A stretch of 64,000 nucleotides of DNA, from NCBI GenBank assembly GCA_918797485.1, contig CAKKNE010000004.1, forward strand, positions 2,418,001 to 2,482,000. Reading direction: 5' to 3'. Source of the stretch: Pelagomonas calceolata. Lineage: Eukaryota. Shown here piece after piece: positions 33,441 through 57,455 of this stretch. The notes under the pieces are model-generated. The model saw only the letters and a list, made by a program, of their open reading frames with translations. It was not told where the DNA came from and searched no databases. Every line of letters begins with the position of its first letter. Position 1 is the first letter of the stretch. The position numbers and the translations under genes were made by a program.

Positions 33441-34658
33441 TCACTTAGCCAGCTTCCGCCGCCACCGCCGATTCGTCCGCGCGAGGTCGCCCGGCAATCC
33501 ATCACAAAATCGGGCGAGCGCGTCGGCGGCGCCCTGCGGCACGGCGCGGAGCCGGTACGCGCCGCGTGCGCCGGTGGCAGAAACGACGGCGTCGAGGCGC
33601 GCGCCGCGGGACACGACGCGGACGCGCCAGAGGGCGCCGTCCGCGTCTACGTCAGAAACCGTGGCGTCGGCATGCAACGCGACGGCGCGGGCGGCGAGGC
33701 GGTCGCGGAGCTCCGGAACCGAGCAGTCCGCGGGCACGGCCACGTCGCGGGCCGGGTCGCGCTTCTTGGCGAACACGCGCGCGTCGCCCCGTGGCGCCGG
33801 GCCCGCGGCCACCGAAAAGGCGACGGCCCAGCGCGTCGTCCGGCCCAGATCGATCGTCGTCGTCGCGACGCGAGAAATGCCTCGTTCCCGGAGCAGCGCC
33901 AGGACGCGCCGCAGCGACTGCTTCCGGCCCAGGAGCGCCGAGTGCCACGCCACGCGACTCTGTAAGCGCAGCGCGTCCTCGATGAGCGCCGCGCAGAAGC
34001 CGACCTCGCCGTCGTCCCGGACGGTCTCCGCCGCCGTCGCCTCGGCGGCGCCGTCGCGGCGCGGCGCGCCGCCGCAGGCGTTGCGCCGCTCGTCGTCGCT
34101 CTCGAACCACGGCGGGTTCGCCAGAACGACGTCGACGCCCGCGCGGCCGGCCGCGTCGAGCGCCGCCGAGACGGGCCGTTGAGAGGCGGCCGTTGCACAG
34201 ACGCGGAAGACGTCGACGAGCGCGCCGGCGTTCCAGTCCGAATTCTTCGCCACGAGCGCCGCCGCCTCGGCGCAGGCCTTGTCGTCGCTCTCGGACGCGA
34301 CGACGCGCCAGCCCCGGCACCGCGCCGCCAACAGCGCAATTATACACGACGCGCCGCAGCCGACGTCGAGGGCGTTCGTCACGCCGTCGCCGGCGACCTT
34401 GGCGGCCCAGGCCACGTAGCGGACCCGGTTCGGCACGCAGGGCACTAGATGCCCGGGCGCCGCCTGATACGTGATGCCGAAGTCGTGGCGCAGCAGCGCT
34501 TCGGCGACGACGGCCCGCGCTTCCGGGCGCGTCCAGTCGACGCCGGTTTCGCCTTTGAAGGTCGCAGTGCAGGCTGCCAATTTCGGGTCTGTGGCGGCCA
34601 GCGATGCCCAATCCGTGCGCGCGCCGTAGGACTCGAGCGCTGCTAGGTCTTGCGCCAT
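33441..34658 (-). CDS. METTL16: METTL16/RlmF-family RNA m6A methyltransferase
   Basis: LLRHDFG, LVPCVPNRVRY, LDVGCGASCI, NPPW, GEVGF, WHSALLG, GRTTRWAVA. Confidence 0.9.
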   Translation of the reverse strand: MAQDLAALESYGARTDWASLAATDPKLAACTATFKGETGVDWTRPEARAVVAEALLRHDFGITYQAAPGHLVPCVPNRVRYVAWAAKVAGDGVTNALDVGCGASCIIALLAARCRGWRVVASESDDKACAEAAALVAKNSDWNAGALVDVFRVCATAASQRPVSAALDAAGRAGVDVVLANPPWFESDDERRNACGGAPRRDGAAEATAAETVRDDGEVGFCAALIEDALRLQSRVAWHSALLGRKQSLRRVLALLRERGISRVATTTIDLGRTTRWAVAFSVAAGPAPRGDARVFAKKRDPARDVAVPADCSVPELRDRLAARAVALHADATVSDVDADGALWRVRVVSRGARLDAVVSATGARGAYRLRAVPQGAADALARFCDGLPGDLARTNRRWRRKLAK

Positions 34659-34737: not shown

Positions 34738-34857
34738 TCAGAGTGTTTGCAGGCGCCAACACCTAGTAAGTTTTTGGTTTTGATCCTACGCGGGTTGCCT
34801 GTATCGGTGCATTTTCAAGGCCTTTCTTTGCTGGACTAAGATAAACAAGTCTGGAAA

Positions 34858-36769
34858 TTATTCACTCACATTACCTACTCTCGGACTCCTCCTCGGACCG
34901 CTCCTCGGACTTCTCCTCCTCTCGCACTCCTCCGACCCTACAGCCTTCTTTCTCTTCAACTGGGCCCGCTTTCGCTTCTTCGCGGCGTCCGGTCGCGGCG
35001 CGCCGCGCTGCGATCGCATGTCCACTATGGCACCTCTAGGAACCTCTTGCCCACTCGGCGCCGGACGACGCGCGAGGGCTGCATTGATGGCCGGTGCCAT
35101 GTGGCGATAGAACTCAATCACCACGTCCATGGTATGCATCTCGCCGAGCAACTCCATCAGTTCTGAGATGGTAGTGTCCGACGGAAGCTTATAGTTGCGC
35201 AGCCCCATCAGATCGAGTATCTCCATGATCGTCGGCGTGCGGACCAGCATGGTTCCGGTGCTCGGATCCAGGACGCGCAGCTCCTCAGAACCGAAGTCAC
35301 TATCCCGCATATAACCGTCGTGGGCCTTGGCCAACGCTACGAGGTCCTCCCCCACGCCGGTTCCGGCACGTTGCAGCGCCGAATTCACTGGTCCACGACA
35401 AAATGTTCGCAGTCCACCCTTGAGTTTGCCAGTACTGAACGAGGAGACGAGCGGTTTGTCCACAGGAATGATGACGCTCGTGCCGTTCTTATACCCCCTT
35501 TCTCCTCTTTCATGTCGATCGTTGTACCACATAATACTCGGCCCGTCTATACCAGCATCCCTCAACGTCGCCTCCCACCTCGTGAATCGCGGGCGTCGCT
35601 CGCACAAACCTGTGTTCGAGGGATGTTTGTCCCCACCCGGCCAGCGGCGCGCGCAGTCGTCCACGGTCGAAGGCACTACTCAGTCACGCCGCTGCGCACG
35701 CACAACCTCGCTTTCGATATCCTTTGCGTCGCCGTCGCCGACTTTGAGAAAGATGGCCTGACATTGCGTCTTCATGTAAAAAACAGGACTGGCGTCGGCG
35801 ACGTCGCGGGCGTCGAGCTCCACCAACAATACGACGTAGCCCAAGTCCACGGCCATCTTGAAGAGCCTCGTGTACAACTCGCCATTAAACGCGTTCTTAG
35901 AGTTTTCAACAATGATGACTTTCCTGTCCGACTCGAGCGCGGCTTCGATCAACTCTTCTGACACGAGGGCCTGGGCGCAGATCGAATCGTTTTCGTATGG
36001 AGACGCGCGTTCTCCGTCCGCTCGGGCGGTGACGCTCTGCTTGCCCACGTCCTGTCACAGATGTCCTCAAGTAAGAAGGCGCCGTCGAATGATCACACCG
36101 AGTAAGACGTCATCGCACTTGTCGCCGTCGCCTGTGACAGGAATCCACGGCTGGCAAGGAGGTTCGAGAGCAATGATTTCGGCCTGCGGGTTGTTCCTAA
36201 GGAACCGGCGGAAGCTGTCGCCGTCCACCTTCTCGGCACGCGCCCGCCCCTTGCCGAAATTGGCGAGAGCGAGCTTGATCTTGCCCGCCTGCTTGTCGAA
36301 GCACATGCACACGTGGCATCCGAGGGCCAATGCCAGCGCGGCGCCTTGGACACCGCCACCACCACAGCATTCGACGATACCGACGCCTTTGGACGACGCC
36401 CTCGGCATAGTCCCGGCGTCGACGATCCTGTTCCCGCGGAGCGACACTCCGATCTGCTCTTGTTCCAAATCCTCGAGCGTGCGGCCACCGTGGCCGCTCC
36501 GGCCGTGGTTCGGCACGTTCCCGTCCAATTTCCTCCCCACGGCAGCTTGAGATTTGAAGATCTCGCCGTCTGCTTCATAATACCAATCGATATGATCTCG
36601 CCCGGTTGGCGTCTTTCTCTGACTATGGCGGTGCACACGGAGGTTGGCTTCTTCAACCCGTTCGTCGCTTACGCCCCACTTGCGGAGGCTCAGCTTAAGG
36701 GTCGCCTGCGCGGACGCCCACATCACAGCACCGAAGGCATCTGCGGATAAGGACGCGGGCAGCGACGAG
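34858..36769 (-). CDS. Divergent C5 cytosine DNA methyltransferase domain preceded by an MBD-like domain; predicted introns 36052-36138 and 35610-35699
   Basis: Motifs in order: I IVECCGGGG, IV EPPCQPW, VI IIVENS, IX RTPTIMEILDLMGL, X LLGEMHTMDVV. MBD-like RKTPTGRDHIDWYYEADGEIFKSQAAVGRKL. All in-frame stops fall inside the predicted introns. Confidence 0.75.
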
Positions 36770-39700
36770 CTGTGCGCAGTAGTCCGCCGGGAAGTCGCTC
36801 AGGACGACGTCGCGGCGCGGTCGGTCCTCGTCAATCAATTCATCCTGAGCGCGCCGTTCTGCTCGTGCTTCGTCCAGGGCCTCCTCTGCTTTCTTCGCGG
36901 CCTTCCGCTGTGCCGGCCGTGTCTTGGGACTCATTTTGTTCACCGCCTTCTTCGGTTTCGCTTTCTTGGGAGCCTTCTTCTTCTTCTTCTTCTTCTTCTT
37001 CTTCTTGGGGGGCTTCTTCCAGGCGGCAGGCATCCGCGCTTCGTTGGCCAGCTCGGCAGGCGGCTTCAGCGTGCCGCCGCTCTTCAGGGTGTCCCTGAGC
37101 GCGGCCACGACGAGCTCCCGCGTCTTGTACTCATAGGGTCTGCCTTCGGTCTTCGTGACGCCTTTGTGATCCAGCGGGTAAGATCCGAAATTCTTCTGGA
37201 CCATCACAATCCTATTTCGCTGCGAGCTGGCGGCATCGGACACCACTTCGCGTACCGGGCGCTGCAGGACGAGAATCTCGTCGATGGGCACCTGTGTGGA
37301 AATCAACCAGTGCGTCGGGTGCACCCGGTAATTCTTCGAGAAGTCATATCTCGGCGATGACGGCCGTGTTGGCTGGAAATGAGCGGCGATGGACCACATC
37401 GCCACGCCGTCGAGCGGGCGTCGCGTCGACGGCGTGGAGGTCACGATTCAGCACCACATCGCCACGCCATCGAGCAGGCGTCGCGTCGATGGCGTGGAGG
37501 CCATGTTCAGCAGTGTTGGAGACGCGCCGCGACAATTTGATTTCTACACGGATAGGGACCACCCACCCTTTCCCTTTATACGCCCACGTGTCGTCCTTCA
37601 AGTTGCTAGATTTTCGCGCCGAGCCGAAAACGTATAGCACGCAGATATGCCCTTCCAAGTGTTTGATCTTCGAGACCGCCTCTTGTAGTTTCTCTTCGCC
37701 CACTTCCCGCGCACCGCGACACGCCTCCATGACGTCCTTTATTTCCACGTCACCTTGCGGAGTAAGGCGCACAGACTGCACCGTATTCTCGAACTTTCGC
37801 GCGGTCTCTTCTTTTATTTCGTTCTCGATATTTTTACCGAAAAAACGGGCATATGCGAAGTGTACTATATTTCTATTCAAGCCATGAGTGGTAAATTTCT
37901 CCAAGTGAGGTAGTAGTGCGTCTCCCCGTAGAGATGTCCTCTCGGCCGTTGGAGGATCTTCGTAAACTTGTGGTTCAGAATGATTGTTTGCTGGTTGGCG
38001 CGGCCGCAGTCGTTGGGACAGCCCCGGCTCCCATGGCGTGTCCTCGTCGTCGTCGTCGTCGGCCGGGGAGGCAAGAGGTTCAAACCCGTCGTCGCTGTCA
38101 GCATGAGCATCTGGTCCTTGCACCAGCGCGCGGCGCTGCGTTTCGGCAATAGCTTCGGCGCGGATAACCTTGTCCCAGTCAATTTGTTTACGTTTCGATG
38201 TACTTCGTGGAGGAACAGTCGCCGTCGGGGCCCGGGTCTCGCTGCGTGTCTCCTTTTCTAATTCCTGTCTTCGTCGACGCATGTCCCTGACCGCATCTTT
38301 CCAGGTGTCGTACTCACCGATGTATGTCTTGTAGTCGTATTTACCGCAGCGGTGCCAGCCTTTTTTATATACTTTAACTTTGATTGCATGCTTTCCTTCG
38401 TAGTAGTGTCCCGGACCGTACTGAATAACGTACGCCGGCATTTCATCGATTCCGAGGGGGCGCGTGGGCAATGGGTAGAGCAGGGTACATAAATAGGGGG
38501 GTGTGTCCGAGCCCACGTCGTCTGCGGGCGGCATGCCGCCCAGGAACTCATCGTGCTTGAGACAGATCCTCCCGAAACACCCCCCAGAGAACGGCGCGTC
38601 GTCGTCGTCGTCGTCGAGTCCTTCCTCGCCCGGCGAAGGCCTATTCCAGCAGCTCATTGCCCACCGTGCGGCCGCAGCGAGGCTGGAGCACGTGCAGAGA
38701 GCAAAGCGCGCGGCGCGGGCTGCCATCGCCGGGCTGACGCGGTCGGGCGCCGCGTCGTCTTCAACGAGCGTCTCGACGCGCTCCTGGTCGTCCTCGTCGT
38801 TGCATTCTGAGTCCGAGGGGGTTGCCGCGAGCGCTGTAAGGCCGTAGACGTCGTCGTCTAACGAGTGGGCCTCGTTCAGGGCGTCGCACGCGTGTGCAAT
38901 ACGCGCACGCGGAAGCTCGGTCTCGCGCATCGACGCGGCCACGATGCCCGCCATTTTCAACGGCCGACGAAGAGGGAGGCGGTTGATCGCGAGGATCTTG
39001 TCCTGTATCGACGTGGCGGCGTTGCCGAGGATGGCGTCGACCTCGTCCATAGGCGACCAGGGCACGCGTGGCGGCAGCAGCGCGTCGGCGCCAGGCGACG
39101 TCGGTGTCGTCGGCGGCGACTGCAGCGGCGCGCACGTCGCCGGGGGCCTTGGCGAGCTCGCGACGACGGCCGGCGCCTCCGAGCGCCGGTCGCGCCGCGC
39201 GGCCGTCGCGACCTCGGCGGCGCGCGCGTGCGCCGCCGCCGCGTCCTCGTGCGCGCGCGCCGCCGCGTCCTCGCGCGCCATTGCCGCCGCGGCGTCCTCG
39301 CGCGCGCGCAACGCGGCGTCCTCGCGCGCCGCCGCGTCCTCGCGCGCCATCGCCGCTGCGTCCTCGGACGCGTCCGACGCCGCGTCCTCACGCCCGTGCG
39401 TCGCCACGTCCTCGTGCGCCATGGCCTCGAGCTCGCGCGCCCCGCGCTGCCGCTCTCTGCGCCGTCTCTTTTTTTCGCGGCGGCGGGCCGTCTCCCGCGC
39501 GGCCGCCAACCGCCGCGCGCACTCGCGAGCCGCTTCGCGAGCAAGGGCGCGAGCGGCCTTCTGCTGGGCCTTGCGAGCCGAGATCGTGCGCAGGCCCAGC
39601 TCTGCGCACTGCTTGGCCCGCAACGCGCTCTCCTCGCGGAACGCCCGCCGCCACCGCTCCGCGATCTTGGCGTCGTGCTTGGCCTTGGCCTCGGCCTTCT

Positions 39701-40004
39701 CCTTAGCCGCCGCCTTGCGCTTGGCTGCCTCAGCCTCGCGCTCTCGCAGGCGTTCCTCGCGCTCCGCCGCCTCGGCGGCCCTGTCGTTCGCCGAAGGACG
39801 GGCTTTGGCCTTCGCGCGCGCTGCAAGCACAGCCGCCTTTCTTTCGGCCTCGGCGGCCTCGGCGTAGATCTCGGCGGCGACGAAGGGAATGTTTCTCCCG
39901 TGCTCACTGCTGAAAACACTAACGCCAAGACGCGTAAAAGCCGCATCGAGCGTGTCGGCATTGTAACGGGAGCCGTACTCGTCACACTTTTCTTCCTCTG
40001 CCAT
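36770..40004 (-). CDS. Large low-complexity/coiled-coil protein with AP2-like segment; probably the 5' part of the methyltransferase gene
   Basis: ORFs 37344-40004 and 36695-37444 join in frame across introner 37292-37559. YIGEYDTWKDAV is AP2-like; AREDAA repeats and poly-Lys are present. Link to the MTase needs a tentative GC-AG intron 36770-36854. Confidence 0.65.
37284..37559 (-). mobile_element. Introner element (37292-37551) with internal duplication
   Basis: TIRs ctgtgtggaaatcaa / ttgatttctacacgg; TSD atgggcac / atagggac (6/8; both read VPI on the minus strand); two copies of the gccacgcc.tcgagc.ggcgtcgcgtcga.ggcgtgg hairpin. Confidence 0.88.
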
Positions 40005-40478
40005 TTCCTGTCAAGTAGGCATTAACTGGCTGCTGAAATGCGCCCGGGCTTCCGGGGCGCACGCAGCCGTTACCCTCGTGCCCCGCAAGGCATATCTCCG
40101 ATTTGGGCTGCCTGAAGACCGTGGGCAGCGCGGGACTGGCGTTGCCGCTGGCTGCAATGCCAAGCGCTGGCGGCCTGGCAGTGTCGGGTTTTTACTTTCA
40201 GTTTTTGGACTCGTGTCCACGTGCATGACCTCATCAAGCCAAGAATCCTATGAGCGAGTTTATTCTTAGGACTCGTCCCGTCGAATGTTGGTGAGTGAAC
40301 ATCGGTTGATGCATTTGTAGGAGTGGTGCGGCGACAACTTGAGGCCAAAGACCTGTGGGTATTGATGCAAATAATTCTCCAAATTCAGAATTCATCCTAG
40401 TCGTTTGCCAAGACCAAATATTTCGCAGTAGCGGCCGAGGAACATACCCTCGCGGCACCGCGACATTCGCGGATGACA

Positions 40479-40860
40479 CTTACGGCTCGCCAAAATACAC
40501 CAGCGATGGACGCCGCCATCTACTATCCAAATAGTACATCATATCAACTCCAGCCCGGTTTTCATACAAGTTGGACGGAACCGGAGCCGCCTGCCCGCGC
40601 TCGGAGGGCGGGAAAAGAATTCTACTAGACAACTCCCGATTTTATGTTCGTTTCCTTCCGTTTGGTAGTGGTAGAGTCCATCCTGACCGCCTGGACATCG
40701 GCCAGCATGATCATGTACTCCGTTAGAGCCGCGTGATTCGTCGAGTTCGCGACCTCGCGTTTATATAAAACAGAGCTCAAGACCTCAACCCGCGACTATC
40801 AGCGACGCCACCATCCAGGTGGACCATAACGCCATCGTTCTATTCACGATCGACCGACTT
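40479..40860 (+). repeat. Diverged, interrupted copy of the 300-bp repeat unit
   Basis: cttacggctcgccaaa...catacaagttggacggaac (40479-40590) and tatcagcgacgc.accatcc...ttcacgatcgaccgact (about 40795-40860) match the 42.6-43.7 kb array. Confidence 0.85.
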
Positions 40861-41289
40861 GGCCGTTCTCTGCGGACGACGGTGCGTACGCGGGGCACTG
40901 GAAAGGCCCCAGACCGGTGAGTTGTAAAATAAATTCGCGTTTGAGGCGCTTCGGTTCCGGGACAGGCCAGCTAACCGGCTTGACTGTGTACTACATTGCT
41001 CCGAGACCCGACGATCGTCCATCTCGGGACCCAGATCGAGTGTTGTACAATGCTTCCAGCACCTTGATTGATAGGATGGACTCAAAGGCTTCGTAGCCGG
41101 TCGCCGACAGAGCGACTCGTCGAGATGACCCGAGAACATACTAATTTGAGAGTCGTCAGCAAGTCTGCAGCGCTGCGCGACGGGTAGGAGGGTACGTGAC
41201 TTGTATACGAGATAAGACCGAGGACTGCCGTACCTAATCTTGCCCAAGTCAGCACTACGCCAGGTGAAAAACACAGAACGTTTTTTCAC

Positions 41290-41311
41290 CTAGTGTCTTA
41301 CTGCCGCTAGC
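41290..41311. promoter_or_regulatory. Bipartite upstream motif
   Basis: ctagtgtcttactgccgctagc, about 145 bp upstream of ATG 41455. Confidence 0.6.
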
Positions 41312-41454
41312 AGCGAGTTTGGGGAGCAAGCACACAAAGAAGCACACGCCCGCAAGTGCACGCTGCGTAAGGGTTTTGAAGGAGGGCACAGCCCCCATTT
41401 GCCAGCCCGTAGAGCGCTAGGCGTTCCTCCGGCTAGCGATCAGGACAACATTCC

Positions 41455-42504
41455 ATGGCGGAGAGGCAGGTGCCGAGCGCGACCTTAGAGAAACGAGTAG
41501 CTCGCTGCGGGGCAGGCAACAAAGCTAAAACACGACGCGGCGGTCTACAATTCGAAGCATCAAATCGCGCCGAGCGTGGTCCAGGTCGTCCGCCACACGG
41601 GCGGCCTGAAGCGGAGCTTGGCCCGTACGCAGAAGGTCTTGTCGGTCATGAAGGTCGATCAATTGAACAGTATCAACTCCAGGACCACGGGTCTCCAGAA
41701 CCCCCCAAAGAACAGGAGATGGATGCTACAGCAGCCCGAGAGAAGGGCGTATTGAGAGGCCGATTAGGAAACAGCCTATTTAAAGTGGTACTTGCATGGC
41801 TAGCTGGAGCTGCAAGAAATTTCCTCTCGTCAAGGACCGGGCGCTGGATAGCTGAATTTAAAGGCTCGGGCCGATTCGCCGACACATATTTCAGCGTTGT
41901 GCGGTATTGGAAGACTCCAGGACGCCATCCGCCTCTAGCGGTTTGTGACGAGTTGGAAAATGGGCTTCATACGTCGGCCGCAGGGACGGATAAACGTCAA
42001 TTCTGTAGTCATGCATCGAGAATGCTCGGTGCCTCTACGCTCACCAGCGATGAACGGATGCATCAAATAGTAGATGCAATCCTGGAGAATATTGTAGCCG
42101 ATGAAAATCTGGGCAGCTCAGTGCTCAGACGCAATGGTGGCACCTATGTCATGGAATTGATGAAGCACAAGAAGGGCGTTGGAGGGTTGCACGCTGACTG
42201 TGCTTGCTTGAGGAATGTTATCATCGTTGTGAAGCTGTCGGGTGAAAGCTATGCAAGGATCCTGGTCCCTAACTACGACGATGGCCGATCTGGTGCCAGA
42301 GAGGATGGCGAGTTTATCTTCAAGCAAAGTCCAGGGACGTACTACATTATGCGGGGCGCGGCTCGCAAGAGCAAGCACGAGATTACTTACACGGAGGAGG
42401 GCTGGACTCTATTGATTCGTACGGATTGCGGCGAAGAGGAGGCCCCGCTGACACGGGCCCAACGCGCGGAGCGAAGGAACAAATCCCGTCGAATTGACGC
42501 GTAG
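41455..42504 (+). CDS. AlkB-like 2OG-Fe(II) dioxygenase
   Basis: GGLHAD (42190-42198), IIVVKLSG, PGTYYIMRGAAR..KHEI (42376), WTLLIR. Confidence 0.75.
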   Translation: MAERQVPSATLEKRVARCGAGNKAKTRRGGLQFEASNRAERGPGRPPHGRPEAELGPYAEGLVGHEGRSIEQYQLQDHGSPEPPKEQEMDATAAREKGVLRGRLGNSLFKVVLAWLAGAARNFLSSRTGRWIAEFKGSGRFADTYFSVVRYWKTPGRHPPLAVCDELENGLHTSAAGTDKRQFCSHASRMLGASTLTSDERMHQIVDAILENIVADENLGSSVLRRNGGTYVMELMKHKKGVGGLHADCACLRNVIIVVKLSGESYARILVPNYDDGRSGAREDGEFIFKQSPGTYYIMRGAARKSKHEITYTEEGWTLLIRTDCGEEEAPLTRAQRAERRNKSRRIDA

Positions 42505-42644
42505 GAGGGCGTGTAAGAGGAGTGTAAGGTTTAGGTCGAAAGAGAGTAGGTGGTCCTAGACCGCCACCAACCCCTCGACAGCCCGCGCTCCGAGGGCAAG
42601 AGGAGAATTCTACGAGTCTGATACAAGTTGGACGGGAGCCGACA

Positions 42645-43685
42645 AGAGCATTTCCGAGTTTTTACCAGACGTGGCAGGAGCAATCGTGGAATGAGTCTTA
42701 CGGCTCGCCAAAGTAGACCGGCGATTGACGCCGCCATCTACCGTCCAAATGGTACATTATATCAACTCCAGCCCAGTTTTCATACAAGTTGGACGGAACT
42801 GGAGCCGACGGTCGACCCCCGCGACCCCCGCGAAGCCCAGGTTTTTCACACAAACGACTTAGAACCTGAACCTGCGAGTATCAGCGACGCGACCATCCGG
42901 ATGGACCACAACGCTGTTGCTTTCTTCACGATCGACCGACTCGCCAGACATTTCCGAGTTTTTACCAGACGTGGCAGGAGCAATCGTGGAATGAGTCTTA
43001 CGGCTCGCCAAAGTAGACCGGCGATTGACGCCGCCATCTACCGTCCAAATGGTACATTATATCAACTCCAGCCCAGTTTTCATACAAGTTGGACGGAACT
43101 GGAGCCGACGGTCGACCCCCGCGACCCCCGCGAAGCCCAGGTTTTTCACACAAACGACTTAGAACCTGAACCTGCGAGTATCAGCGACGCGACCATCCGG
43201 ATGGACCACAACGCTGTTGCTTTCTTCACGATCGACCGACTCGCCAGAGCATTTCCGAGTTTTTACCAGACGTGGCAGGAGCAATCGTGGAATGAGTCTT
43301 ACGGCTCGCCAAAGTAGACCGGCGATTGACGCCGCCATCTACCGTCCAAATGGTACATTATATCAACTCCAGCCCAGTTTTCATACAAGTTGGACGGAAC
43401 TGGAGCCGACGGTCGACCCCCGCGACCCCCGCGAAGCCCAGGTTTTTCACACAAACGACTTAGAACCTGAACCTGCGAGTATCAGCGACGCGACCATCCG
43501 GATGGACCACAACGCTGTTGCTTTCTTCACGATCGACCGACTCGCCAGAGCATTTCCGAGTTTTTACCAGACGTGGCAGGAGCAATCGTGGAATGAGTCT
43601 TACGGCTCGCCAAAGTAGACCGGCGATTGACGCCGCCATCTACCGTCCAAATGGTACATTATATCAACTCCAGCCCAGTTTTCAT
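42645..43685. repeat. Tandem array of a 300/301-bp unit, about 3.45 near-identical copies
   Basis: catttccgagtttttaccagacg starts at 42649, 42949, 43250 and 43551. Confidence 0.97.
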
Positions 43686-43902
43686 CGACAATCGACGGAA
43701 CCGGAGCCACGGCCCGCGCTCGCGACCCGACGTTTTCACACAATCGACGACCAGACGATGTTCTAGCTGCCAAAGCTCGACCACTATTCCATTTTCGTCG
43801 TACACAAACAGCGTACCCATAACGTGTTGATAGAGTACATCATCGGCCGTGAGGCCGTCGCTCGCGGGCCAAGATACTAGTAAAAATAACACTTGCAACA
43901 AC

Positions 43903-46566
43903 TTACCTCGCTGGCGGCGAAGCTCGATGTTTCGCAAGTCGCTCATAGCGGTCCCTCAAGCCTTCGTCGAAGTCGCCGTCGAGGACCTCCTGCCATAGTT
44001 CCGGGTCATTCTCGACCGCGTCGGCGAATTCCTTGATTCCACCGAGCGTGTAGGGGACGATGCGTAGGAGGGTGTGGCCGGGCGTCCTCGGCTCAGGCGA
44101 GTTCGGAAAAACATTGCAGTGGAGACGCGTGGCGCTCGAGAAGATAGCAATGCACACGTGGTTTGGACACGCGGTCTGAATACGGATGCATCGACCTCCA
44201 GACTCGTCTTCGAAGATCATGAGATCATTCTTTTTGAGTGGCCGCCCTTTGACTCGCGCCGCGCCTTCCTCCTTCACGTACGCATAGATCAGGGGCGAGC
44301 CCCTAGGGTGACGTACGTCCCCGCTGTCGGCGTGCAGCCCGCAGGGCTGAAATGACCTCTCCTTCACATGACGGGAGCCAGCTTCCAGACCGAGAGGCTC
44401 GCCGGCCACGCGGACTACGACCTGGTTCACAGATAGGGAGTGCTTCGAGCGCGCGTCGTCGTCCGGGTGCTGCATGTCGTGGGTTGGGAACATGAGCGTG
44501 TCGTGCATGACCGGATGATTTGCGACCTGGGACATAGCCTCGAGTACGTCGGGAACCTCACGGTGTATAATCTCGGCGCACTGTCCGATTACCGGAGCCA
44601 CGGCCGCCATCACCGACTCCACGACTGGCTTGTGCGTGTCCGCGCGTATCCAGGGAACGACAACAGTGCCCGTTCCGGTGTTGATGGTGCGCGTGGGGTT
44701 CGGCCCCGTGGTACTTGAAACAAAGCTGCCTGCAACTCCGGCGGGCCAGTAAGAACCGCCCGTCTTCTGGTCATTCTTGAGCCCTTTCTGGCGCAGCGCC
44801 TCATCGACCTTTTTAAACGCCGTGTCAATTAAGGCCCGTAACTGCGACGAATCTACTGTTCTGCCGTCGGAGGGCGCGAAGATTACAGTGGCCATCTCGT
44901 CTCCAGATGCGGCGTAGGCGTGCACCGTCCGCTTCTTTCCACGGGCGGGCGGCTGGATCAGGAACGGTTCGAAAAGGGCGACATCCTTTTCTGTCAGGAC
45001 CTTGACCTGACTCTCGGGATAACCGTTATTCCCCGCCCTCGGGTCCGGGTGTCCGGTGAGGCCGGTGCCTTCGATTATGACACCGTTTCCGTCCCTTCTC
45101 ACGCCCGCGACTAAAACGCCCTCCTTATCATAGATCGAGGCATCCTTGAAACTCTTCGTCTCACCATACTCAAGCTGACTAGCATCCTGCGCCAGCTGAA
45201 AGTGGACCACGTCGCCGCCGTCCCGACGAATCACGACCTTTCGTCCCGCCGGTAAAACAGTCGCCACGGCGCCTTTTGGAAAATTGCCAGGCCACGTAGG
45301 TGGCCCGGACGTGTCGAGCGGTGCCGCGGCGTCGGTCATCACCACGTCTGACTCGATGACCCTGACACTGGCGAGTGGACGTTCGAGCCTGAGATGTTCA
45401 AAGGCCCGATAGCACGCACGGTGAAGATATAGCTTTCTCACACCATTGTCGATCATCCATTCGCCCGCCAGCTCTAGTTTCGCAGCCCGTCGCCGTTTTA
45501 GAGGGGTCAGGCTGTCCCACGCCGCCTCCGCTTTGGCGCACGTGCGCACAATGGTATCGATCGTAATGTGGCGTTCAGGTCTCAAAAGCCGTCGTCCTTC
45601 GATGGTTGCACAGCAAGCCGACGCCATTCTTCCGCAGGCGAGCCGCTTGACCGCGTCGGCGTTGGACGACGGTTTTGTGGGCCACTCGCCGCCTGTGCGG
45701 AAATCGACACCTGAGACGCATGCAATGCGCGGCGCCGACGCGGCGCTGCGGCGGCAGTGCTGTCTGAGTCGAGCGGTGACGTGCGCAGCGACGCCGTCGA
45801 GTCTACGGACGCGACGATTTTGACGAAGGCCACGGGAATTTGATGTCCGCGCAGTTTCACCACCGCAAGGGTTGTTCCGGCTTGGGCCGCCGCGCGGTGC
45901 GGCGTCCGTAGTTAACGAGTTCCGCCTGTTGGACACGTCGTCGTTACCAACCGTCTCAGGCTCCTCATCCCGAGGCGACCCTGGCGGCTCGTCTGCGGTG
46001 CCGAGGTACTTGTTGTTGAAGAAGCCCTCGTTCTTGACAATAAAATGAGCCCCGTCAGCGATAGCAGCTTGTATAACGTGCATGAGACGGCCAGACCCAG
46101 TGGTAAATAGACACAGAAAATTGCCGCGCGACGCATCTCCGAGGATGGTCGTCGCGCCAGTATCACTGAACACGACAACAGCGCGCTCGTCGAGCGCTTT
46201 GCCAATCCTTTCGAGTGCGTCTCCGTTGATGGGGACCGGGAGGCCCGCGGAGACGCCCGCCACGTCCCGCAAGGCTCCAGTGTTGGACGCAAGTGCTAGC
46301 CGTAGATTGGCATCGGGCGCTTTCTTCGCGAGCTCTTTGATGGCGTCGAAGACGCAATCATTACCCAGGCCTTCAATAGCACAAGTCAAGAAGGCCTCTG
46401 TGAGGGCGGGAAGTGGTCCCTCGCCGTCGTCTCTTGCGGTCTCAAGGGCGTAGATCTCGGCCGCGACCTCGGCGACCTCTTCACTGAAACAAGTAACGCC
46501 AAGACGCTCCAAAGAATTCAGAGACTGGTCTTGCAAAGGGAGGTGCATTGGGGGGCAACGCAGCAT
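43903..46566 (-). CDS. TET/JBP-like Fe(II) dioxygenase at the C-terminus of a large protein; in-frame introner intron 45693-45863
   Basis: GSYWPAG; CGLHADSGD (HxD 44326-44334); RLHCN (44119); LLRIVPY with Arg and Tyr on the last strand. Confidence 0.7.
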   Translation of the reverse strand: MLRCPPMHLPLQDQSLNSLERLGVTCFSEEVAEVAAEIYALETARDDGEGPLPALTEAFLTCAIEGLGNDCVFDAIKELAKKAPDANLRLALASNTGALRDVAGVSAGLPVPINGDALERIGKALDERAVVVFSDTGATTILGDASRGNFLCLFTTGSGRLMHVIQAAIADGAHFIVKNEGFFNNKYLGTADEPPGSPRDEEPETVGNDDVSNRRNSLTTDAAPRGGPSRNNPCGGETARTSNSRGLRQNRRVRRLDGVAAHVTARLRQHCRRSAASAPRIACVSGVDFRTGGEWPTKPSSNADAVKRLACGRMASACCATIEGRRLLRPERHITIDTIVRTCAKAEAAWDSLTPLKRRRAAKLELAGEWMIDNGVRKLYLHRACYRAFEHLRLERPLASVRVIESDVVMTDAAAPLDTSGPPTWPGNFPKGAVATVLPAGRKVVIRRDGGDVVHFQLAQDASQLEYGETKSFKDASIYDKEGVLVAGVRRDGNGVIIEGTGLTGHPDPRAGNNGYPESQVKVLTEKDVALFEPFLIQPPARGKKRTVHAYAASGDEMATVIFAPSDGRTVDSSQLRALIDTAFKKVDEALRQKGLKNDQKTGGSYWPAGVAGSFVSSTTGPNPTRTINTGTGTVVVPWIRADTHKPVVESVMAAVAPVIGQCAEIIHREVPDVLEAMSQVANHPVMHDTLMFPTHDMQHPDDDARSKHSLSVNQVVVRVAGEPLGLEAGSRHVKERSFQPCGLHADSGDVRHPRGSPLIYAYVKEEGAARVKGRPLKKNDLMIFEDESGGRCIRIQTACPNHVCIAIFSSATRLHCNVFPNSPEPRTPGHTLLRIVPYTLGGIKEFADAVENDPELWQEVLDGDFDEGLRDRYERLAKHRASPPAR
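45685..45863 (-). mobile_element. Older, diverged introner (45693-45854)
   Basis: TIRs ctgtgcggaaatcga / ttgatgtccgcgcag; flanks both encode GGE (degenerate TSD); 171-nt GT-AG intron. Confidence 0.75.
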
Positions 46567-48472
46567 CTACCACACGTGGGTCAAGCGGCCTCCTGTTATT
46601 TCTGTCATCAGCACCCCAACCTCTGACTGACGAGAGCATCTTCCCGGGTGGCTTGATCCCTTCCTTCTCGAGGGGCAGGTCGACGCCGGTGTCGGCGAGC
46701 CTGATCGCTTTCTCGAGGTAGCTAACGAGGTCTCGGGGCGTCGAGAAAGTTTTATGACGACCTGGGTCAGCCCTCTTCTTGTCCTTCCCCCAGAGCTTCC
46801 AGTAGTTCGGGAAGCCGTCCGGCACATGGATGGTGCAATGACTATTTGTCCATTCGAAGGTAGAACCGTAGAAGCCGTAGCCCTTCAGCAGGTCCTTGAG
46901 GTATTCGAGCGGATTGGCTATCTTCTTGCTCTGCGCCTCCTCCAACGCTCTAAGAATTGCTTTCGCCGGTAATTGCCAGGGCACAGCCGACGACAGCGCG
47001 TCGGCGCCGCGCGTCGGCGCCGCCAACTGCTCCTTCTCCTCCTCCTCCTCCTCGGAATCGGACTCTACCTCGTCCTCGTCCTGGTCCCGCGACCGCCCCC
47101 ACTGGTTCTCGTCGTCGTCGTCGTCGTCGTCGTCATTGTCGGTTCCTAGCACGCCGCGCATGTCGTTCAAGTCCGCCTCGGGCGCCGGCGTCGCCGCGCC
47201 GCCCGCCTCCCGGCGCTGCTCGTCCGCCTCGAGCGACTTCAGCGACGCCGCGAACGCCGCCTTGAGCTCCTCGTCATCAGCGGACGCGATGCGCCGCCGC
47301 GTCCTCGGCGGCCCCCGGCGGCGCGACGGCGGCTGCCGGGGGTCCGCCACGAGCGCCAGCTGCGACGCCGCGACTGCCGTCGCGCGGTCATCGTCATCAT
47401 CCTCGGACTCGATGCGCCGCACCCTCGACTCCCGCCGGGGCGGCGGCGACGCGGCGCACTCGCGCGGCCGCGCGACGCGCTCGCGCGGCGGCGCGGCGCG
47501 CTCGCGCGGCGGCGCGACGCGCCGCTGCTCGTCCGTCTTCCGCGCGGCGGACTTGGGCCGCGGCGGCGGCCAGATCCGCTTGTCGCCGTTCAGAATCGCG
47601 CGCAGCACGCGCTCCGGCACGTGCTCGCGGCACCAGTAGCACTTCCAGTCTCGTTCTTTGAGCTTCCCAAGGCACGACGCGCAGGCCTTGTTGCCGCAGC
47701 ACGTGACCGTCGCCAGCTTCACGCCGTCGTCGTAGCAAATGGTGCACTCGCCCGTCTCGTAGCAAATGGTGCACGCCGAGGACAGGGGCGGCGGCCGGTC
47801 CTCCTCATCCAACGACTGGCAAGCCGCCACGTCGGCCGGGCCCTCCATGTCCTCGTCCGAGGAGCGGCCCGCGCTTGAAGCCGGCGGCGGCGGCGGCGGC
47901 CGGAAGGGCGGCGGCGGCGGCGGCCGGAAGGGCGCCGGCCGCGGCGGCGGCGGCGCCGCGGGCTGCGGCGGGCCCTCGGTCATCGCGAGGTAGGCTTCTA
48001 AGGCTTCTAAGTCCCGCCCCGGGGCCCTCCTATGCTTCTTCTTCTTCTTCTTCTGCCGACCGCGCGGCGGCGTCTCCAACGTCCGTCGCCGGCGTGTGTC
48101 GTCGTCGTCGTCGTCCGGCGTCCGTCGCCTTCCCGACGACGGCGGCGGCGCGTCCTCGGGGTTTGTGCTGCTCAACGAGTCCATGATTTGTAGCAGGTGC
48201 GTATCCCGTCGGTCGAACATGTCTTTGCGTTCGCGCGCCTTTGTGCATGTCGCCAGATCTCCCATGAACATAGTCATGGCCCTTCTTTCCCTCACGTGCT
48301 CCCGATTCAAAGCCTCGGCCGCGGCGGCCCGCTCGCGCAGCCGGTCGTTGTCTTTTTTTAGGCTAGCATTCTCTTCCTCGACGATTGCCAGCCTGTCCGT
48401 CAATGTAATCTGACCGACGACGCTTAAAGGTACGGACTCCTCGCTGTTCGGCGGCGGCGCAGCGGCGCTCAT
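46481..48472 (-). CDS. Coiled coil, RING, UIM-like and MBD-like protein; probably exon 1 of the TET/JBP-like gene (tentative intron 46567-46627)
   Basis: CTIC...CCGNKACASC...CYWCR (RING); DEELKAAFAASL; VPDGFPNYWKLW...KTFSTPRDLVSYLE (MBD-like). A GT-AG intron gives an in-frame 1445-aa model. Confidence 0.65.
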   Translation of the reverse strand: MSAAAPPPNSEESVPLSVVGQITLTDRLAIVEEENASLKKDNDRLRERAAAAEALNREHVRERRAMTMFMGDLATCTKARERKDMFDRRDTHLLQIMDSLSSTNPEDAPPPSSGRRRTPDDDDDDTRRRRTLETPPRGRQKKKKKKHRRAPGRDLEALEAYLAMTEGPPQPAAPPPPRPAPFRPPPPPPFRPPPPPPASSAGRSSDEDMEGPADVAACQSLDEEDRPPPLSSACTICYETGECTICYDDGVKLATVTCCGNKACASCLGKLKERDWKCYWCREHVPERVLRAILNGDKRIWPPPRPKSAARKTDEQRRVAPPRERAAPPRERVARPRECAASPPPRRESRVRRIESEDDDDDRATAVAASQLALVADPRQPPSRRRGPPRTRRRIASADDEELKAAFAASLKSLEADEQRREAGGAATPAPEADLNDMRGVLGTDNDDDDDDDDENQWGRSRDQDEDEVESDSEEEEEEKEQLAAPTRGADALSSAVPWQLPAKAILRALEEAQSKKIANPLEYLKDLLKGYGFYGSTFEWTNSHCTIHVPDGFPNYWKLWGKDKKRADPGRHKTFSTPRDLVSYLEKAIRLADTGVDLPLEKEGIKPPGKMLSSVRGWGADDRNNRRPLDPRVVDAALPPNAPPFARPVSEFFGASWRYLFQ

Positions 48473-48922: not shown

Positions 48923-49531
48923 ATGGCAGGTGTAGGTGGAGGTGGAGCCCCCCCCGCCCTGCTCCCGGGCATCGCGCAGCAGAAGAACGCGCTCCTCCAA
49001 AATTTTCTGCTCAGCGCGGCGAACCGCGCGCACCTCACGTCGACGGCGTTCGCGAACGCGACACCGGTCGACCAGCAATCCACGCTTGATGCTTTCGCCA
49101 ATCAGGTGGCGGCGGCGGCGGCGCCGGCGCCGGCGCCGGCTCCCGCTCTGACCGCCGCGGAGCTCCACCAGCAGCGTGTAGACAGGGCCCAAGCCGCGGC
49201 CAACGCTGCGCGGCAAGCCCTCGGTATGCCGCAGTGTCAAATGTTGTTATTTTCCTCGTTTCGCGTTTACTAATCATCCACACAGAGGAAAACAAGCAGA
49301 TCAACCGGATCCACCGCAGCGCGTACCACGATTAAACGGATATGCACGCGCGTCGCGGCCGCGCTCGGCGATGGTCGCGGCCGCGTCAGTCCCCCCCCTC
49401 CTAAGGCTTGTCCTTGAGTATGGCTTCGCTCCTAGAGTATCACGCCGGGCCACGGCATGTACCACATCAGGTTCTTCGACGGCAGCGAAGACGACTCTGT
49501 CTCTCCTCATCACGTCCGCCGCGCGCCGTGA
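48923..49531 (+). CDS. Small hypothetical gene or remnant, possibly spliced to a Tudor-like tail
   Basis: Ala-rich ORF, then gtatgc...cacacag intron; downstream MYHIRFFDGSEDDSVSPHHVRR. The simple splice hits a stop, so the model is unresolved. Confidence 0.35.
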
Positions 49532-49621
49532 CCATTGACCAACGCGGTGGCCCGGCGGGACTCATGGCCTCGTGTAACTAGGTGTTAGGCGCCAACCTAC
49601 TATGGGTGTGGGAGGTGAGGT

Positions 49622-52600
49622 TCAGCTCTCCTTCTTCGGCTCCTTCTCGTCGGGCGGAGGAGCGGACGGCTCGTACGCGGCCTGGCCGGGGGAATACGCT
49701 CCCGTGGAGGGCGTCGAGTCCGCCCCGAAGCTGCTCGGCGAGGATGACGCTTGCCCGGCGCCGTCGAAGCTCGTAGGTGAGTACTGCGTAGGGGGGCGCA
49801 GGGTTAGGTTTCGGAGCGCCGCGCGCGAGACGTCTCCCGAACAACAACTCGTAGCGCCGAGCGTACTGTCGCGAAGCGATCGGCAAACGATCGGCGAAGG
49901 AAAGCCATGTAGCGACGCTGCCACACGCCGCAGGCGAAGAAGGGCTGTAGGCCGGGCTCCTGTGTGGCAACGAAACGGTGATCGCGCGGCAAAGCATTGT
50001 CGTAGGTCGTCCTGGCGCAAAACACGGCGGGCCTCGGTCGTCGGATCCGAGGTCGGCTCCGAGGACCGCTAGAGGCGGTTCCGACGATCAGCAGTGGCCT
50101 TGGCGCAATGGCCGCGGCCGCCGCCTCGGCCATCGCCTCGGCCACTGGTTCCTCAGGCCACTTCGTAGGTCGTCTGGATTCATTATAAGACACCGAAACA
50201 CGTGCGTCGGAGAGTACTGTGTAGAAACAAGATGGGTGAGCTGTGGAACCGATAAAGAGGCGTAACGTCCCTTTTCGGGCTCGAACGAAGTGCTAAGTCT
50301 CACAACGAAGTCGAAGTGCTGTGTAGGGCGCTGGAAACGCACTGCGGGACTCGATGGACTGTAGGCGGGACTCGTAGGCCTGCGTGGAGAACGAACAGTC
50401 AGGGACCCGATCCGAGGCTCTTGGTTGATTCACGACGCCGCGGCGCACGAGTAGGCCGGTGATGTAGGCCTGCGGAGAGAACGAAAGGTTAGCGACCCGA
50501 CCCGAGGCGCTCGATTGAGGACCCGAGGCGCTTGATTGAGTTAGGACGCCGCGACGCACGAGTACGCGGGACTCGTAGGACCTGCGCGGAAACCGAACAA
50601 TCAGGGAATCGGCCCGAGGATATTGGTTGATTCCAGACGCCAGTGCGGCACTGTACGCGGGTGACGTAGGCCTACGTAGAAAAGAAACGGTCAGCACGAA
50701 CGAACGATAAACGTGATGAGAATCGCGAGTCCGGACGCCGGGACGCACGAGTACGCCGGTGACGTAGGCCTGCGTAGAAAAAAAACGGTGAGGGACCCGA
50801 TTCGAGGCGCTTGATTGAGTTAGGACGCCGCGACGCACGAGTACGCGGGACTCGTAGGACCTGCGCGGAAACCGAACAATCAGGGAATCGGCCCGAGGAT
50901 ATTGGTTGATTCCAGACGCCAGTGCGGCACTGTACGCGGGTGACGTAGGCCTACGTAGAAAAGAAACGGTCAGCACGAACGAACGATAAACGTGATGAGA
51001 ATCGCGAGTCCGGACGCCGGGACGCACGAGTACGCCGGCGATGTAGGCCTGGGTGGAAAAGGAACGGTCAGCAAAGCAACCAGGCTCCGTCCGGACGCCG
51101 TGACGCCACGAGTACGCGGGGCTTGTAGGACCTGCGAGGGATACGAACAATCAGGGAATCGGCCCGAGGTTGTTGGTTGATTCCAGACGCCCGGACGGCA
51201 CTGTAAGCGGGTGATGTAGGCCTGCGAGGGATACGAACGGTGAGGGACCCGACCCGCGGCTCGCATGACAGTCAGCACGTACGAACGATAAACGTGACGA
51301 GAATCGCGGACGCCGGAACGCACGAATAGGCCGGACTCGCAACCCCCCCGCCGTACACCGGCGACGCCACGCCGCCATACGCCGGCGACGCCCCGTAGAT
51401 GGGCGACGCGCCGTGCACCGGCGACAAGACGGAAGAAATTCCACCAACAGTAGGAGAAAACGCCGCGTCGCCCCAGCCCGGCGTCGCGCCGCCGCGCGCG
51501 GGAGACGCCCCGTACAAGCCGGCCGGAGACGACGCGTAGGGCGTCATCGCCGGCGCCTGGCCAGGCACCGCGTCGGGCGACGCGTCGCCCCACTCCCTCA
51601 GGGAAGCGTTCTGCTGCTGGTCCGGGGCTTCCAATTCCACGGCGTGTTCCAATTGCGCGGAATCCAGCAATAAGTCAGAAACACCAGTGCCCACATGTGC
51701 GAGCTGCCCGAGCATGATATTCGGCGTGACGCCGTCGACGTCGTCTTTTCTCGCGAAGATCGCGCTTTTGAACAAGACCTCGACGGTCTCCTCGAAGGAA
51801 GCCGACAGGAGCGGCCCCGAGTCGCCCCGGTTGATGCCGTGCCTTGAAATGGCCATCAAGCTACCTCGAAAGCACATCGTATCACAGAGCACCGCCAAAT
51901 GCCGATAGTTCACGTAGGCGCCGTCGAACGAAATGACCTCCCTTAACATCTGCAGCAGGGCCTGCCGCGTGCCCTCGATGCCCATGACCTGTGTTGAAAG
52001 ATCGTTCGCGACGGTAGCTCGAGGCGCTCTCGCATCCAGGGGCGCCGCGTCGACGGCGTACCGGGTGTAGGTCGCGTCGGCGGCGTGGGCGCGGCCGCGG
52101 GCTCTGCCGTAGGCCCAGCCGTCGGCGCGGCCGTGGGCTGGCCCGGCGGCTCGGCCGTGGGCTCCGCAGTAAGCGCGGCCGCGGGCTCGACAGCCGCAGG
52201 GCGAAGCAGAAGAAACGACATGGGACGCCGCAAGACGCACGCTACAAATCTCCACGATGTCGTTCGAGACCGTTCTCGTACAGTCGACGTCGGGATCCGC
52301 TAGGACCGTAGCTAGGTTCGTGCCGTCCGTCTCCAGCACCCATTCTTCCCCGTTGCCCAGCGCGCCCGTGGACGCCCAGATATTTGTTTTTTGTTTTTTG
52401 ATGTAGACCTTCGTCACTCTCGGGATGCCTCTTAGTCTCAAATCAGCCAACATCGACTGCTCGACCCTTCTGAGCAGTTGCCACTCATCGTCGTCGTCCT
52501 CGTCCTGCGGCTGATCTCCACCAGTACGTATACGAACTCTCAGTACCAATTGGTCGGCGTTATCATCAGCGTAAATACAGTGCAAGTCCGCCCCATATTC

Positions 52601-57115: not shown

Positions 57116-57455
57116 CTTGGCTTACCTTTGTCTTCTCTTCTCGTGGGGAGCGCTGTGATGTTATTGCGTCTGCGCGGCTGCTTTTGGGAGGAGCGCGTGG
57201 GCGCTCGTGTGGTGCGCGTCGCTGACCGTGTAGCACAGCTCTCGGAGCGGTGCGTCGCGCGGGCGGCGGGCCGCGGCGCCTGTTATATCAGCCGGCTGGA
57301 GAGGCAGGGCTGGGGGCGACGCTGCTGCGCCAGTGATCGAGCTGCGTACCGCGCCGTTTCGTTCCACCTCTGAGACGGCTTCCGGACAGTTCGTTCGGAG
57401 TAACTAGTGTTCCTTTGGCGCAATTAGGCGGCCGCGATGGAGACGCCGCTTGTTT

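What the first reader, a model, noticed from the sequence alone, without database searches (positions are those of the whole stretch)
34858..48472. Candidate DNA-modification module: C5 methyltransferase, AlkB-like and TET/JBP-like dioxygenases around a tandem array
Seen: between METTL16 and RPB1 are three consecutive genes that each look like nucleic-acid base-modifying enzymes. They are an MBD-linked C5 MTase (minus), an AlkB-like oxygenase (plus) and a RING/UIM/MBD/TET-JBP-like protein (minus), with a 300-bp array inside. The central part looks less GC-rich than the flanks. Known: TET/JBP enzymes oxidise 5mC or T, MBDs read methyl-CpG, and TET/JBP genes occur with KDZ-type transposons in fungi and with chromatin domains in algae. 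Inference: a writer-reader-oxidiser unit that may make a hypermodified base or mark its own locus, perhaps mobile. No transposase or terminal repeats were seen.
Basis: partly seen in the sequence, partly recalled or inferred. Interest (0 to 1): 0.85.

Follow-up and report, generated by a model that had tools for sequence, protein, structure and literature searches.

The report
Algal TET-fold DNA-modifying gene cluster
A marine picoalga transcribes a four-gene cluster built around an unannotated enzyme predicted to have the TET fold, which likely oxidises methylated DNA bases and likely arrived on mobile DNA, while the neighbouring methyltransferase-like gene lacks key motifs and is probably not a working "writer".

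Summary
The block is real and transcribed, in Pelagomonas calceolata. It holds four ORFs, not three. C2 (830 aa) has a confident TET/JBP-fold model (pLDDT 90; Z 16.2 TET2, 15.6 NgTET1, 14.1 CcTet, 11.7 CMD1, then 9.9) with an intact HxD..H triad. It belongs to a 141-representative family that Pfam Tet_JBP misses; the named relatives are haptophyte proteins, and some carry PHD fingers. The RING/UIM/MBD-like part (C1) is a separate, out-of-frame ORF on what looks like the same mRNA. B is AlkB-like only by motif and language-model hits. A (1515 aa) has collinear C5-methyltransferase motifs I-VII with the catalytic PC and EN, but lacks motif VIII QxRxR, the motif I Phe and motif X GN, so it is probably degenerate. 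The 301-bp array is a tandem copy of a dispersed repeat. The TET gene recurs as truncated or chimeric copies elsewhere, one beside a Helitron-like 3' end, but no transposase or empty site was found. Best reading: likely anti-silencing cargo or relic of mobile DNA. A writer-reader-oxidiser pathway is not supported. New variant of a known kind.

The parts
34858..40004 (-). Gene A, 1515 aa: coiled/low-complexity N-terminus, AP2-like and BAH/Tudor-like stretches (by eye only), MBD-like motif (aa ~997-1035, by eye), degenerate C5-methyltransferase-like domain (aa ~1083-1440). Exons 40004-37560, 37291-36809, 36705-36109, 35970-35700, 35609-34858.
   Evidence: Minus-strand RNA. Introns 36108-35971 and 35699-35610 deduced from contig piece lengths in two RNA runs. 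Donor 36808 and the repeat intron 37559-37292 are inferred from frame and GT-AG. ORF open; motif alignment.
37292..37559 (-). Repeat-derived (introner-like) intron in gene A; related copies at 6145-6680
   Evidence: exact ends inferred
40383..40871 (.). Diverged copy of a dispersed, many-copy repeat related to the array unit
   Evidence: 83-88% to the array unit; high summed depth and many variant contigs in DNA run X12; no Rfam match
41455..42504 (+). Gene B, 349 aa, intronless; AlkB-like 2OG/Fe(II) dioxygenase motif (H246-x-D248, H308, terminal Arg); GC3 0.53
   Evidence: Unspliced 1200-nt RNA contig with 0 differences; ESM Atlas top hit 2OG-FeII_Oxy_2 cluster, score 0.91; fold unresolved; GC3
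42645..43728 (.). 301-bp tandem array, 3.6 copies, 98% identical; tandem copy of the dispersed repeat
43903..46566 (-). ORF C2, 830 aa after one intron (45863-45693); TET/JBP-fold dioxygenase domain aa ~390-820 with R662, H688, D690, D693, H759, R778, Y782
46481..48472 (-). ORF C1, 663 aa: RING finger (weak Pfam hit), UIM-like and MBD-like motifs (by eye); ends out of frame with C2, overlapping it by 86 nt
46436..46542 (-). About 110-nt segment at the start of C2 that is homologous to the start of gene A (39972-39853); both encode RLGVxxFS..AAEIYA
   Evidence: local DNA alignment score 65 against a maximum of 41 in 500 shuffles
33441..34658 (-). Left flank: METTL16-like RNA methyltransferase (not part of the block)
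49570..57121 (-). Right flank: RPB1 (not part of the block)

Best explanation
The block is a transcribed cluster of four ORFs whose core is a dioxygenase predicted to have the TET/JBP fold and likely to oxidise methylated pyrimidines in DNA, and the cluster is likely cargo or a relic of mobile DNA that would blunt host 5mC silencing. Shown: transcription, gene structure, the predicted fold with an intact iron triad, family conservation, dispersed truncated copies of the TET gene, and a DNA segment shared by A and C2. Inferred: C2 flips out and oxidises 5mC (or T) with Fe(II) and O2. C1 (RING, UIM-like, MBD-like) and A (MBD-like plus a methyltransferase fold without motif VIII) would act as non-catalytic readers, decoys or targeting factors for methylated chromatin. 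B would remove or oxidise alkyl marks on nucleic acid. The mobilising enzyme would be supplied in trans or has been lost.
For: Fold: AlphaFold2 with 100 rows, pLDDT 90.4, pTM 0.92. The top 10 Foldseek PDB hits are all TET2, NgTET1 or CMD1. VIA Z 16.2, 15.6, 14.1 and 11.7 for the four TET-family entries, then FTO 9.9. The best named viral match is a phage JBP1/TET protein. Triad conserved in 78/80, 75/78 and 90/93 rows. PHD finger in 6 of 70 relatives scanned, 3 above the Pfam cut-off. Copies: a P. calceolata paralogue on a contig of different length, 78% identical from aa 420 on and fused behind PHD and a patatin fragment. 4 of 4 confirmed metagenome loci hold only a 290-460-nt piece at 90-94% DNA identity in foreign flanks. 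One of them is followed by a GC hairpin plus CTAG|T, Helitron-like by a recalled consensus. B's 90% cluster has 2 members against a median of about 50 for 10 flanking genes. Precedent: TET on fungal DNA transposons (PMC12730594, abstract); on Chlamydomonas Helitrons and an endogenous giant virus (10.64898/2026.10.09.758095, passages); with MTases in Polinton-like viruses (10.64898/2026.06.19.733378, passages).
Against: No transposase, integrase, capsid or helicase in the block or among 31 other window ORFs scanned. No viral relative of A, B or C2. No clear terminal repeats or target duplication; only one imperfect 16-17-nt inverted pair, found post hoc. The block is single-copy by depth in X12, like METTL16. 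No empty site could be tested. Two of 10 flanking genes also have tiny clusters (2 and 5 members). A, C1 and C2 have host-like GC3 of 0.68-0.82. Haptophyte relatives look like ordinary PHD-fused host genes. Metagenome fragments may be misassemblies, and for protein-only records the foreign N-termini could be introns. No activity was measured, and 5mC in this species was not checked.
Confidence: 0.5

Rival explanations
1. A resident host pathway: A writes 5mC or a non-methyl adduct, MBD-like domains read it, and C2 with B convert it to a hypermodified base.
For: Four adjacent nucleic-acid or chromatin ORFs, all transcribed in one library. A keeps catalytic PCQ and EN and collinear motifs I-VII. 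The family's last-strand Arg sits two residues later than in the recalled TET RxSxVxY motif (R/K in 86 of 88 rows), which may mean another co-substrate pocket; CMD1 lacks canonical 2OG sites (PMC11065753, passages).
Against: A lacks QxRxR, the motif I Phe and GN. No relative of A was found. None of the 141 TET relatives shows similarity to A, B or C1. Linkage is not seen in 4 loci.
Confidence: 0.22
2. A gene-shuffling hotspot: repeats brought together duplicated pieces of chromatin genes, and the ORFs are chimeras, some decaying, with no joint function. C1/C2 would be one gene split by a recent frameshift or two genes fused by a recent join.
For: Shared 5' segment of A and C2; a chimeric paralogue that lacks the 20 residues holding the third iron ligand as annotated; an out-of-frame C1/C2 junction; repeats at the B boundaries.
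Against: All four ORFs are long, open and transcribed, also in seawater metatranscriptomes with 0-2 differences on several pieces. C2 keeps every family-conserved catalytic residue and has the shorter branch of the paralogue pair, 0.058 against 0.19 (quick tree).
Confidence: 0.2
3. C2 acts on thymine (JBP-like, making 5hmU) or on RNA rather than on 5mC in DNA.
For: D at HxDxxD in 77 of 78 rows, and Arg two residues after the terminal Tyr in 25 of 80 rows, a pattern recalled for JBP-type enzymes. Dinoflagellate TET/JBP makes 5hmU (PMC11572971, passages).
Against: The window protein has Leu at that place (25 of 80 rows). MBD-like and PHD partners fit 5mC chromatin. The register is read from sequence, not from a superposition.
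Confidence: 0.08

Closest known systems
TET/JBP dioxygenases (TET2, NgTET1, CcTet)
   Same: Predicted fold and HxD..H triad; conserved Arg on the strand before HxD
   Different: About 10% identity; no Pfam Tet_JBP hit in 0 of 70 relatives or the window protein; last-strand Arg shifted by two against the recalled TET motif; a large N-terminal part of unknown fold
Chlamydomonas CMD1 (5-glyceryl-methylcytosine)
   Same: Algal TET-fold enzyme, Z 11.7; non-canonical co-substrate pocket in CMD1 (PMC11065753, passages)
   Different: Closer in Z to TET2 and NgTET1 than to CMD1; keeps an Arg in the pocket strand; no evidence for vitamin C use
TET-carrying mobile DNA (fungal KDZ/Helitron transposons, Chlamydomonas Helitrons, punuivirus GEVE, Polinton-like viruses with Tet and MTase)
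   Same: TET gene in dispersed, truncated or chimeric copies; beside an MTase-fold gene; transcribed
   Different: No transposase, capsid or proven termini here; the intact block is single-copy by depth; genes are host-like in GC3 and carry spliceosomal introns
C5 DNA methyltransferases (Dcm-type, DNMT2, DNMT5/6)
   Same: Collinear motifs I-VII with PCQ and EN; best PDB sequence hit of the exon is DNMT2 at E 0.28
   Different: Motif VIII QxRxR absent, motif I Phe is Cys, motif X GN is GE; no profile hit; no SNF2 domain
AlkB-family dioxygenases
   Same: HxD..H and terminal Arg; 10 of the 10 best Atlas hits with a family share its family or clan
   Different: First Arg of the recalled Rx5R motif is Gly; no sequence relatives outside a 2-member cluster; fold not obtained

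Membership tests
TET/JBP dioxygenase (C2) | Double-stranded beta-helix with TET-type elaborations, closer to TET than to AlkB | tested here: met
   Z 16.2 (rmsd 3.6, 270 aligned) TET2; 15.6 NgTET1; 14.1 CcTet; 11.7 CMD1; next FTO 9.9; Foldseek top 10
TET/JBP dioxygenase (C2) | HxD..H iron triad | tested here: met
   H688, D690, H759 in 78/80, 75/78, 90/93 rows
TET/JBP dioxygenase (C2) | 2-oxoglutarate-binding Arg on the last strand | tested here: inconclusive
TET/JBP dioxygenase (C2) | Match to the Pfam Tet_JBP profile | tested here: inconclusive
   No hit for the window ORF or for 70 of the 141 relatives; at about 10% identity a profile miss does not exclude membership
TET/JBP dioxygenase (C2) | Oxidation of 5-methylpyrimidine in nucleic acid | not testable with these tools
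   needs an in vitro assay
C5 DNA methyltransferase (A) | Motifs I-VII in order with catalytic PC (IV) and EN (VI) | tested here: met
   One collinear alignment over profile positions 9-148, 5.6 bits; exceeded by 2 of 2000 shuffles; best score against 4.6 for the top of 124 other window ORFs; hhalign 75%, E 2.5e-5. Weak. A Dcm-only profile gave no signal.
C5 DNA methyltransferase (A) | Motif VIII QxRxR | tested here: not met
   TQCQAIF; all 12 control enzymes have QxRxR
C5 DNA methyltransferase (A) | Motif I aromatic/Leu-x-G-x-GG and motif X GN | tested here: not met
   ECCGGGGV and LGEM against F/C-x-GxGG and GN in the 12 controls
C5 DNA methyltransferase (A) | SAM-dependent cytosine methylation | not testable with these tools
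   needs an assay
AlkB family (B) | HxD..H triad | tested here: met
   H246, D248, H308 read from the sequence; Atlas 0.91, 156 of 256 shared features, below the 170 typical of true family members
AlkB family (B) | DSBH fold | tested here: inconclusive
   single-sequence model pLDDT 41, no Foldseek hit
AlkB family (B) | C-terminal Rx5R | tested here: not met
   GWTLLIR: only the last Arg (motif recalled)
MBD/TAM domain (A, C1) | MBD profile or fold | tested here: inconclusive
   no Pfam, PHROG, NCBIfam or PDB sequence hit; resemblance by eye only; not folded
TET-carrying mobile element | Transposase, Rep-helicase, integrase or capsid gene | tested here: not met
   none in block ORFs or 31 other window ORFs
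TET-carrying mobile element | Termini and target-site duplication | tested here: inconclusive
   one imperfect inverted pair 34752-34768 / 49593-49578, no duplication; no Helitron-type CTAG end passed the hairpin filter in the window
TET-carrying mobile element | Dispersed copies | tested here: met
   for the TET part only; not for A, B or C1
TET-carrying mobile element | Empty site in relatives | not testable with these tools
   no genome held; contig look-up closed

The most novel reading that the evidence does not exclude
An unrecognised haptophyte-pelagophyte TET family with a rebuilt co-substrate pocket makes a DNA base not yet described. In Pelagomonas it is co-expressed from a two-ORF mRNA with its RING/MBD-like targeting partner, beside a methyltransferase fold repurposed as a base-flipping reader or non-methyl transferase.
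Probability: 0.15. Interest if true: 0.85.

Novelty: new variant of a known kind. Interest (0 to 1): 0.56.

Why it matters
TET/JBP enzymes have three known chemistries (5hmC series, 5hmU/base J, 5gmC), and whether others exist is posed as open in PMC11065753 (passages). This locus gives a compact, expressed, testable member of a 141-representative family that Pfam misses and that is found in major marine picoalgae and haptophytes. If it rides mobile DNA, it extends the TET anti-silencing arms race to pelagophytes, where linker methylation is reported for Aureococcus (PMC9998398, passages). If A is dead, the interest lies in the TET family and the two-ORF mRNA, not in a three-enzyme pathway.

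Tried and rejected
Whole genome not held; L003 not held as a record. Pfam, PHROG and NCBIfam gave no DNMT, Tet_JBP, AlkB or MBD hit for block ORFs; the best weak one was PrmC, a class I SAM methyltransferase, at E 0.011 on the motif I exon. Word-based homologue searches: C2 1 hit among 4834 candidates; B 0 among 7995; A exon 0 among 2681 longer proteins; plasmid tblastn of that exon 0. A Dcm-only HMM (15 sequences) scored A like shuffles. The single-sequence fold of B failed. The Atlas for C2 gave only scores under 0.9. Viral contigs: no relative of C2, B or A and no exact array motif; prokaryote genomes none. No Rfam match in 40000-44000. Array ORFs are not coding by any profile. A fused C1-C2 protein is rejected as the main product: 16 candidate introns could restore frame, but none was seen at raw-read depth of about 19 (X21) and 4-7 (X22), and an RNA contig crosses unspliced; a minor spliced form is not excluded. 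CpG depletion was not seen in the block (o/e 1.1-1.4, like the flanks). The tree is the quick version only, with long-branch warnings, and is used only for the C2/P0182 pairing. Three look-ups of earlier findings were empty. The complex-prediction job was not used, as no binding is claimed.
Full report
Setting. No genome is held. Source names on a near-identical protein from a contig of the same length, and on a paralogue, give the species as Pelagomonas calceolata. The flanks are METTL16 and RPB1. The block is 60.4% GC against 63.6% outside; 40001-44000 is 54.7%, the lowest 4 kb of the window. That dip comes mostly from repeats and gene B (GC3 0.53, against 0.68-0.82 for A, C1 and C2).

Gene structure from RNA. 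20 of 24 listed runs hold the left part. In the stranded run X21, A and C are read from the minus strand and B from the plus strand. B is one unspliced 1200-nt contig. For A the joint table was swamped by repeats. Two introns (36108-35971, 35699-35610) were deduced from a 272-nt middle piece seen in both X4 and X15; the other two junctions are inferred from frame and GT-AG. The model is open for 1515 codons. The right-hand unit has one intron, 45863-45693 (7 and 8 reads, 2 contigs). An X4 contig runs unspliced through 45863-47020 and no indel is listed. So C1 (663 aa) stops at 46481 and C2 (830 aa) starts at 46566 in another frame. X21 depth falls from 130 at the C2 3' end to 12-19 across the junction and 7-10 at the C1 5' end, with a near-zero gap over the GC-rich 47060-47900 stretch and no 3' peak for C1. 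This suggests one mRNA with two ORFs (inference). There are 21 AUGs ahead of the C2 start, so leaky scanning is unlikely; re-initiation, frameshifting, an internal start or a recent mutation remain open. Pieces of all three units occur in seawater metatranscriptomes, several with 0-2 differences. Co-regulation was not tested.

C2 is TET/JBP-fold. A two-sequence profile found 141 representatives at E<=0.001. I aligned 99 of them with the window domain; the model has pLDDT 90.4. Foldseek ranks TET2, NgTET1 and CMD1 in the top 10. The exhaustive aligner gives Z 16.2, 15.6, 14.1 and 11.7 for TET2, NgTET1, CcTet and CMD1, then 9.9 for FTO. The best named viral match is a phage JBP1/TET protein. H688, D690, H759, R662, D693, R778 and Y782 are family-conserved. 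Against the recalled TET motif RxSxVxY, the Arg sits two places later (LLRIVPY); this register is from sequence only. Of 70 relatives scanned, 0 hit Tet_JBP, 6 have PHD (3 above cut-off), 1 a weak SET and 2 weak 2OG-FeII_Oxy_3. Of the relatives looked up, the two with named organisms outside Pelagomonas are haptophytes. None of the 141 resembles A, B or C1.

A is a degenerate C5-methyltransferase-like protein. No library profile matched. The motif I-IV exon has DNMT2 as its best PDB hit (E 0.28) and PrmC as its best NCBIfam hit (E 0.011). A 15-sequence Dcm profile gave nothing. A profile of 12 diverse C5 enzymes aligned collinearly over motifs I-VII at 5.6 bits, with 2 of 2000 shuffles higher and hhalign 75%. 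PCQ and EN are kept. QxRxR, present in 12 of 12 controls, is absent; the motif I Phe and motif X GN are changed. It is therefore not filed as a working DNMT; loss of catalysis is an inference. No relative was found. MBD, AP2, BAH and UIM labels are by eye.

B has HxD..H and a terminal Arg. Atlas hits at 0.90-0.91 point to 2OG-FeII_Oxy_2, but its fold failed. Its 90% cluster has 2 members, against 85, 50, 51, 139, 5, 2, 57, 33, 13 and 50 for the 10 flanking genes that were found; one further flank gene, C1 (two starts) and unspliced C2 were not in the collection. This is suggestive only.

Array. The unit matches 40464-40603 and 40782-40859 at 83-88%. That stretch draws summed depth of 600-690 and up to 18 variant contigs in DNA run X12, where single-copy pieces have 4-6 (summed depth is not a copy number). 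There is no Rfam match. It is best read as a tandem copy of a dispersed repeat.

Mobility. Of 107 pattern matches in metagenome contigs, 4 were confirmed. Each holds only 290-460 nt of C2 at 90-94%. L001-L003 share a downstream flank unlike the window, with the break at 43856; L001 and L002 have different foreign 5' sides. L004 has a GC hairpin plus CTAG|T just after the fragment, the only CTAG site that passed my hairpin filter in the window and the four loci (consensus recalled). Among 15 close protein fragments, four further classes have foreign N-termini, which could be introns. The annotated paralogue CAH0377023.1 joins the TET domain behind PHD and a patatin fragment, and lacks the 20 residues with the third iron ligand. 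A and C2 share a 5' DNA segment. Against mobility: no transposase or viral gene, no viral relatives, no proven termini, single-copy depth, and no empty-site test.

Literature. Seen as passages: PMC4738411 (chromatin-domain fusions of C5-MTases and TET/JBP are a known trend), PMC9481584, PMC9998398, PMC3145265, PMC11065753, PMC11572971, 10.64898/2026.10.09.758095 and 10.64898/2026.06.19.733378. Seen as abstract and outline: PMC12730594. Nine searches listed no paper on this locus or family by title or abstract. Iyer 2013 was not held and no supplements were read, so prior description is not excluded.

Verdict. A real, expressed cluster; one solid TET-fold enzyme of an unannotated algal family; a doubtful writer; an uncertain AlkB; an incidental array. 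Most likely anti-silencing cargo or a relic of mobile DNA (0.5), then a host modification pathway (0.22) or a shuffling hotspot (0.2). New variant of a known kind; interest 0.56.

Noticed in passing
window 51221-50360 (-): The RPB1 C-terminal repeat is encoded one heptad per micro-exon: 10 pattern-matched exons of 20, 22 or 21 nt separated by 61-90-nt gaps. The '279-bp array' is this exon-intron repeat.
   Followed up: partly
window 46481-46566: Overlapping out-of-frame ORFs C1 and C2 on apparently one mRNA. One metatranscriptome contig (X16 record 5) stops matching at 46512, next to the segment shared with gene A; unexplained.
   Followed up: partly
window 38348-38426: A variant with several substitutions and a 6-nt insertion in RNA and DNA runs: a second copy or allele of the AP2-like stretch of gene A.
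   Followed up: no
window 34752-34768 (+) and 49593-49578 (-): Imperfect 16-17-nt inverted pair bracketing the block; the right copy lies in the RPB1 3' UTR; no target duplication.
   Followed up: partly
L003:2428-4150 (-): A long ORF converging on the TET fragment whose C-terminus looks ASCH/PUA-like by eye; no Pfam or NCBIfam hit.
   Followed up: partly
window 48923-49540 (+): Small, weakly transcribed ORF(s) between C1 and the RPB1 3' end; no Pfam hit.
   Followed up: no
window 6145-6680 and 37292-37559: Introner-like repeats with CTGTGTGGAAATCA-type ends, also in L004.
   Followed up: no
window 19133-20620 and 22547-26239: Other chromatin genes nearby: an OTU deubiquitinase with a Tudor-knot and an ISWI-like SNF2/SLIDE remodeller.
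   Followed up: no
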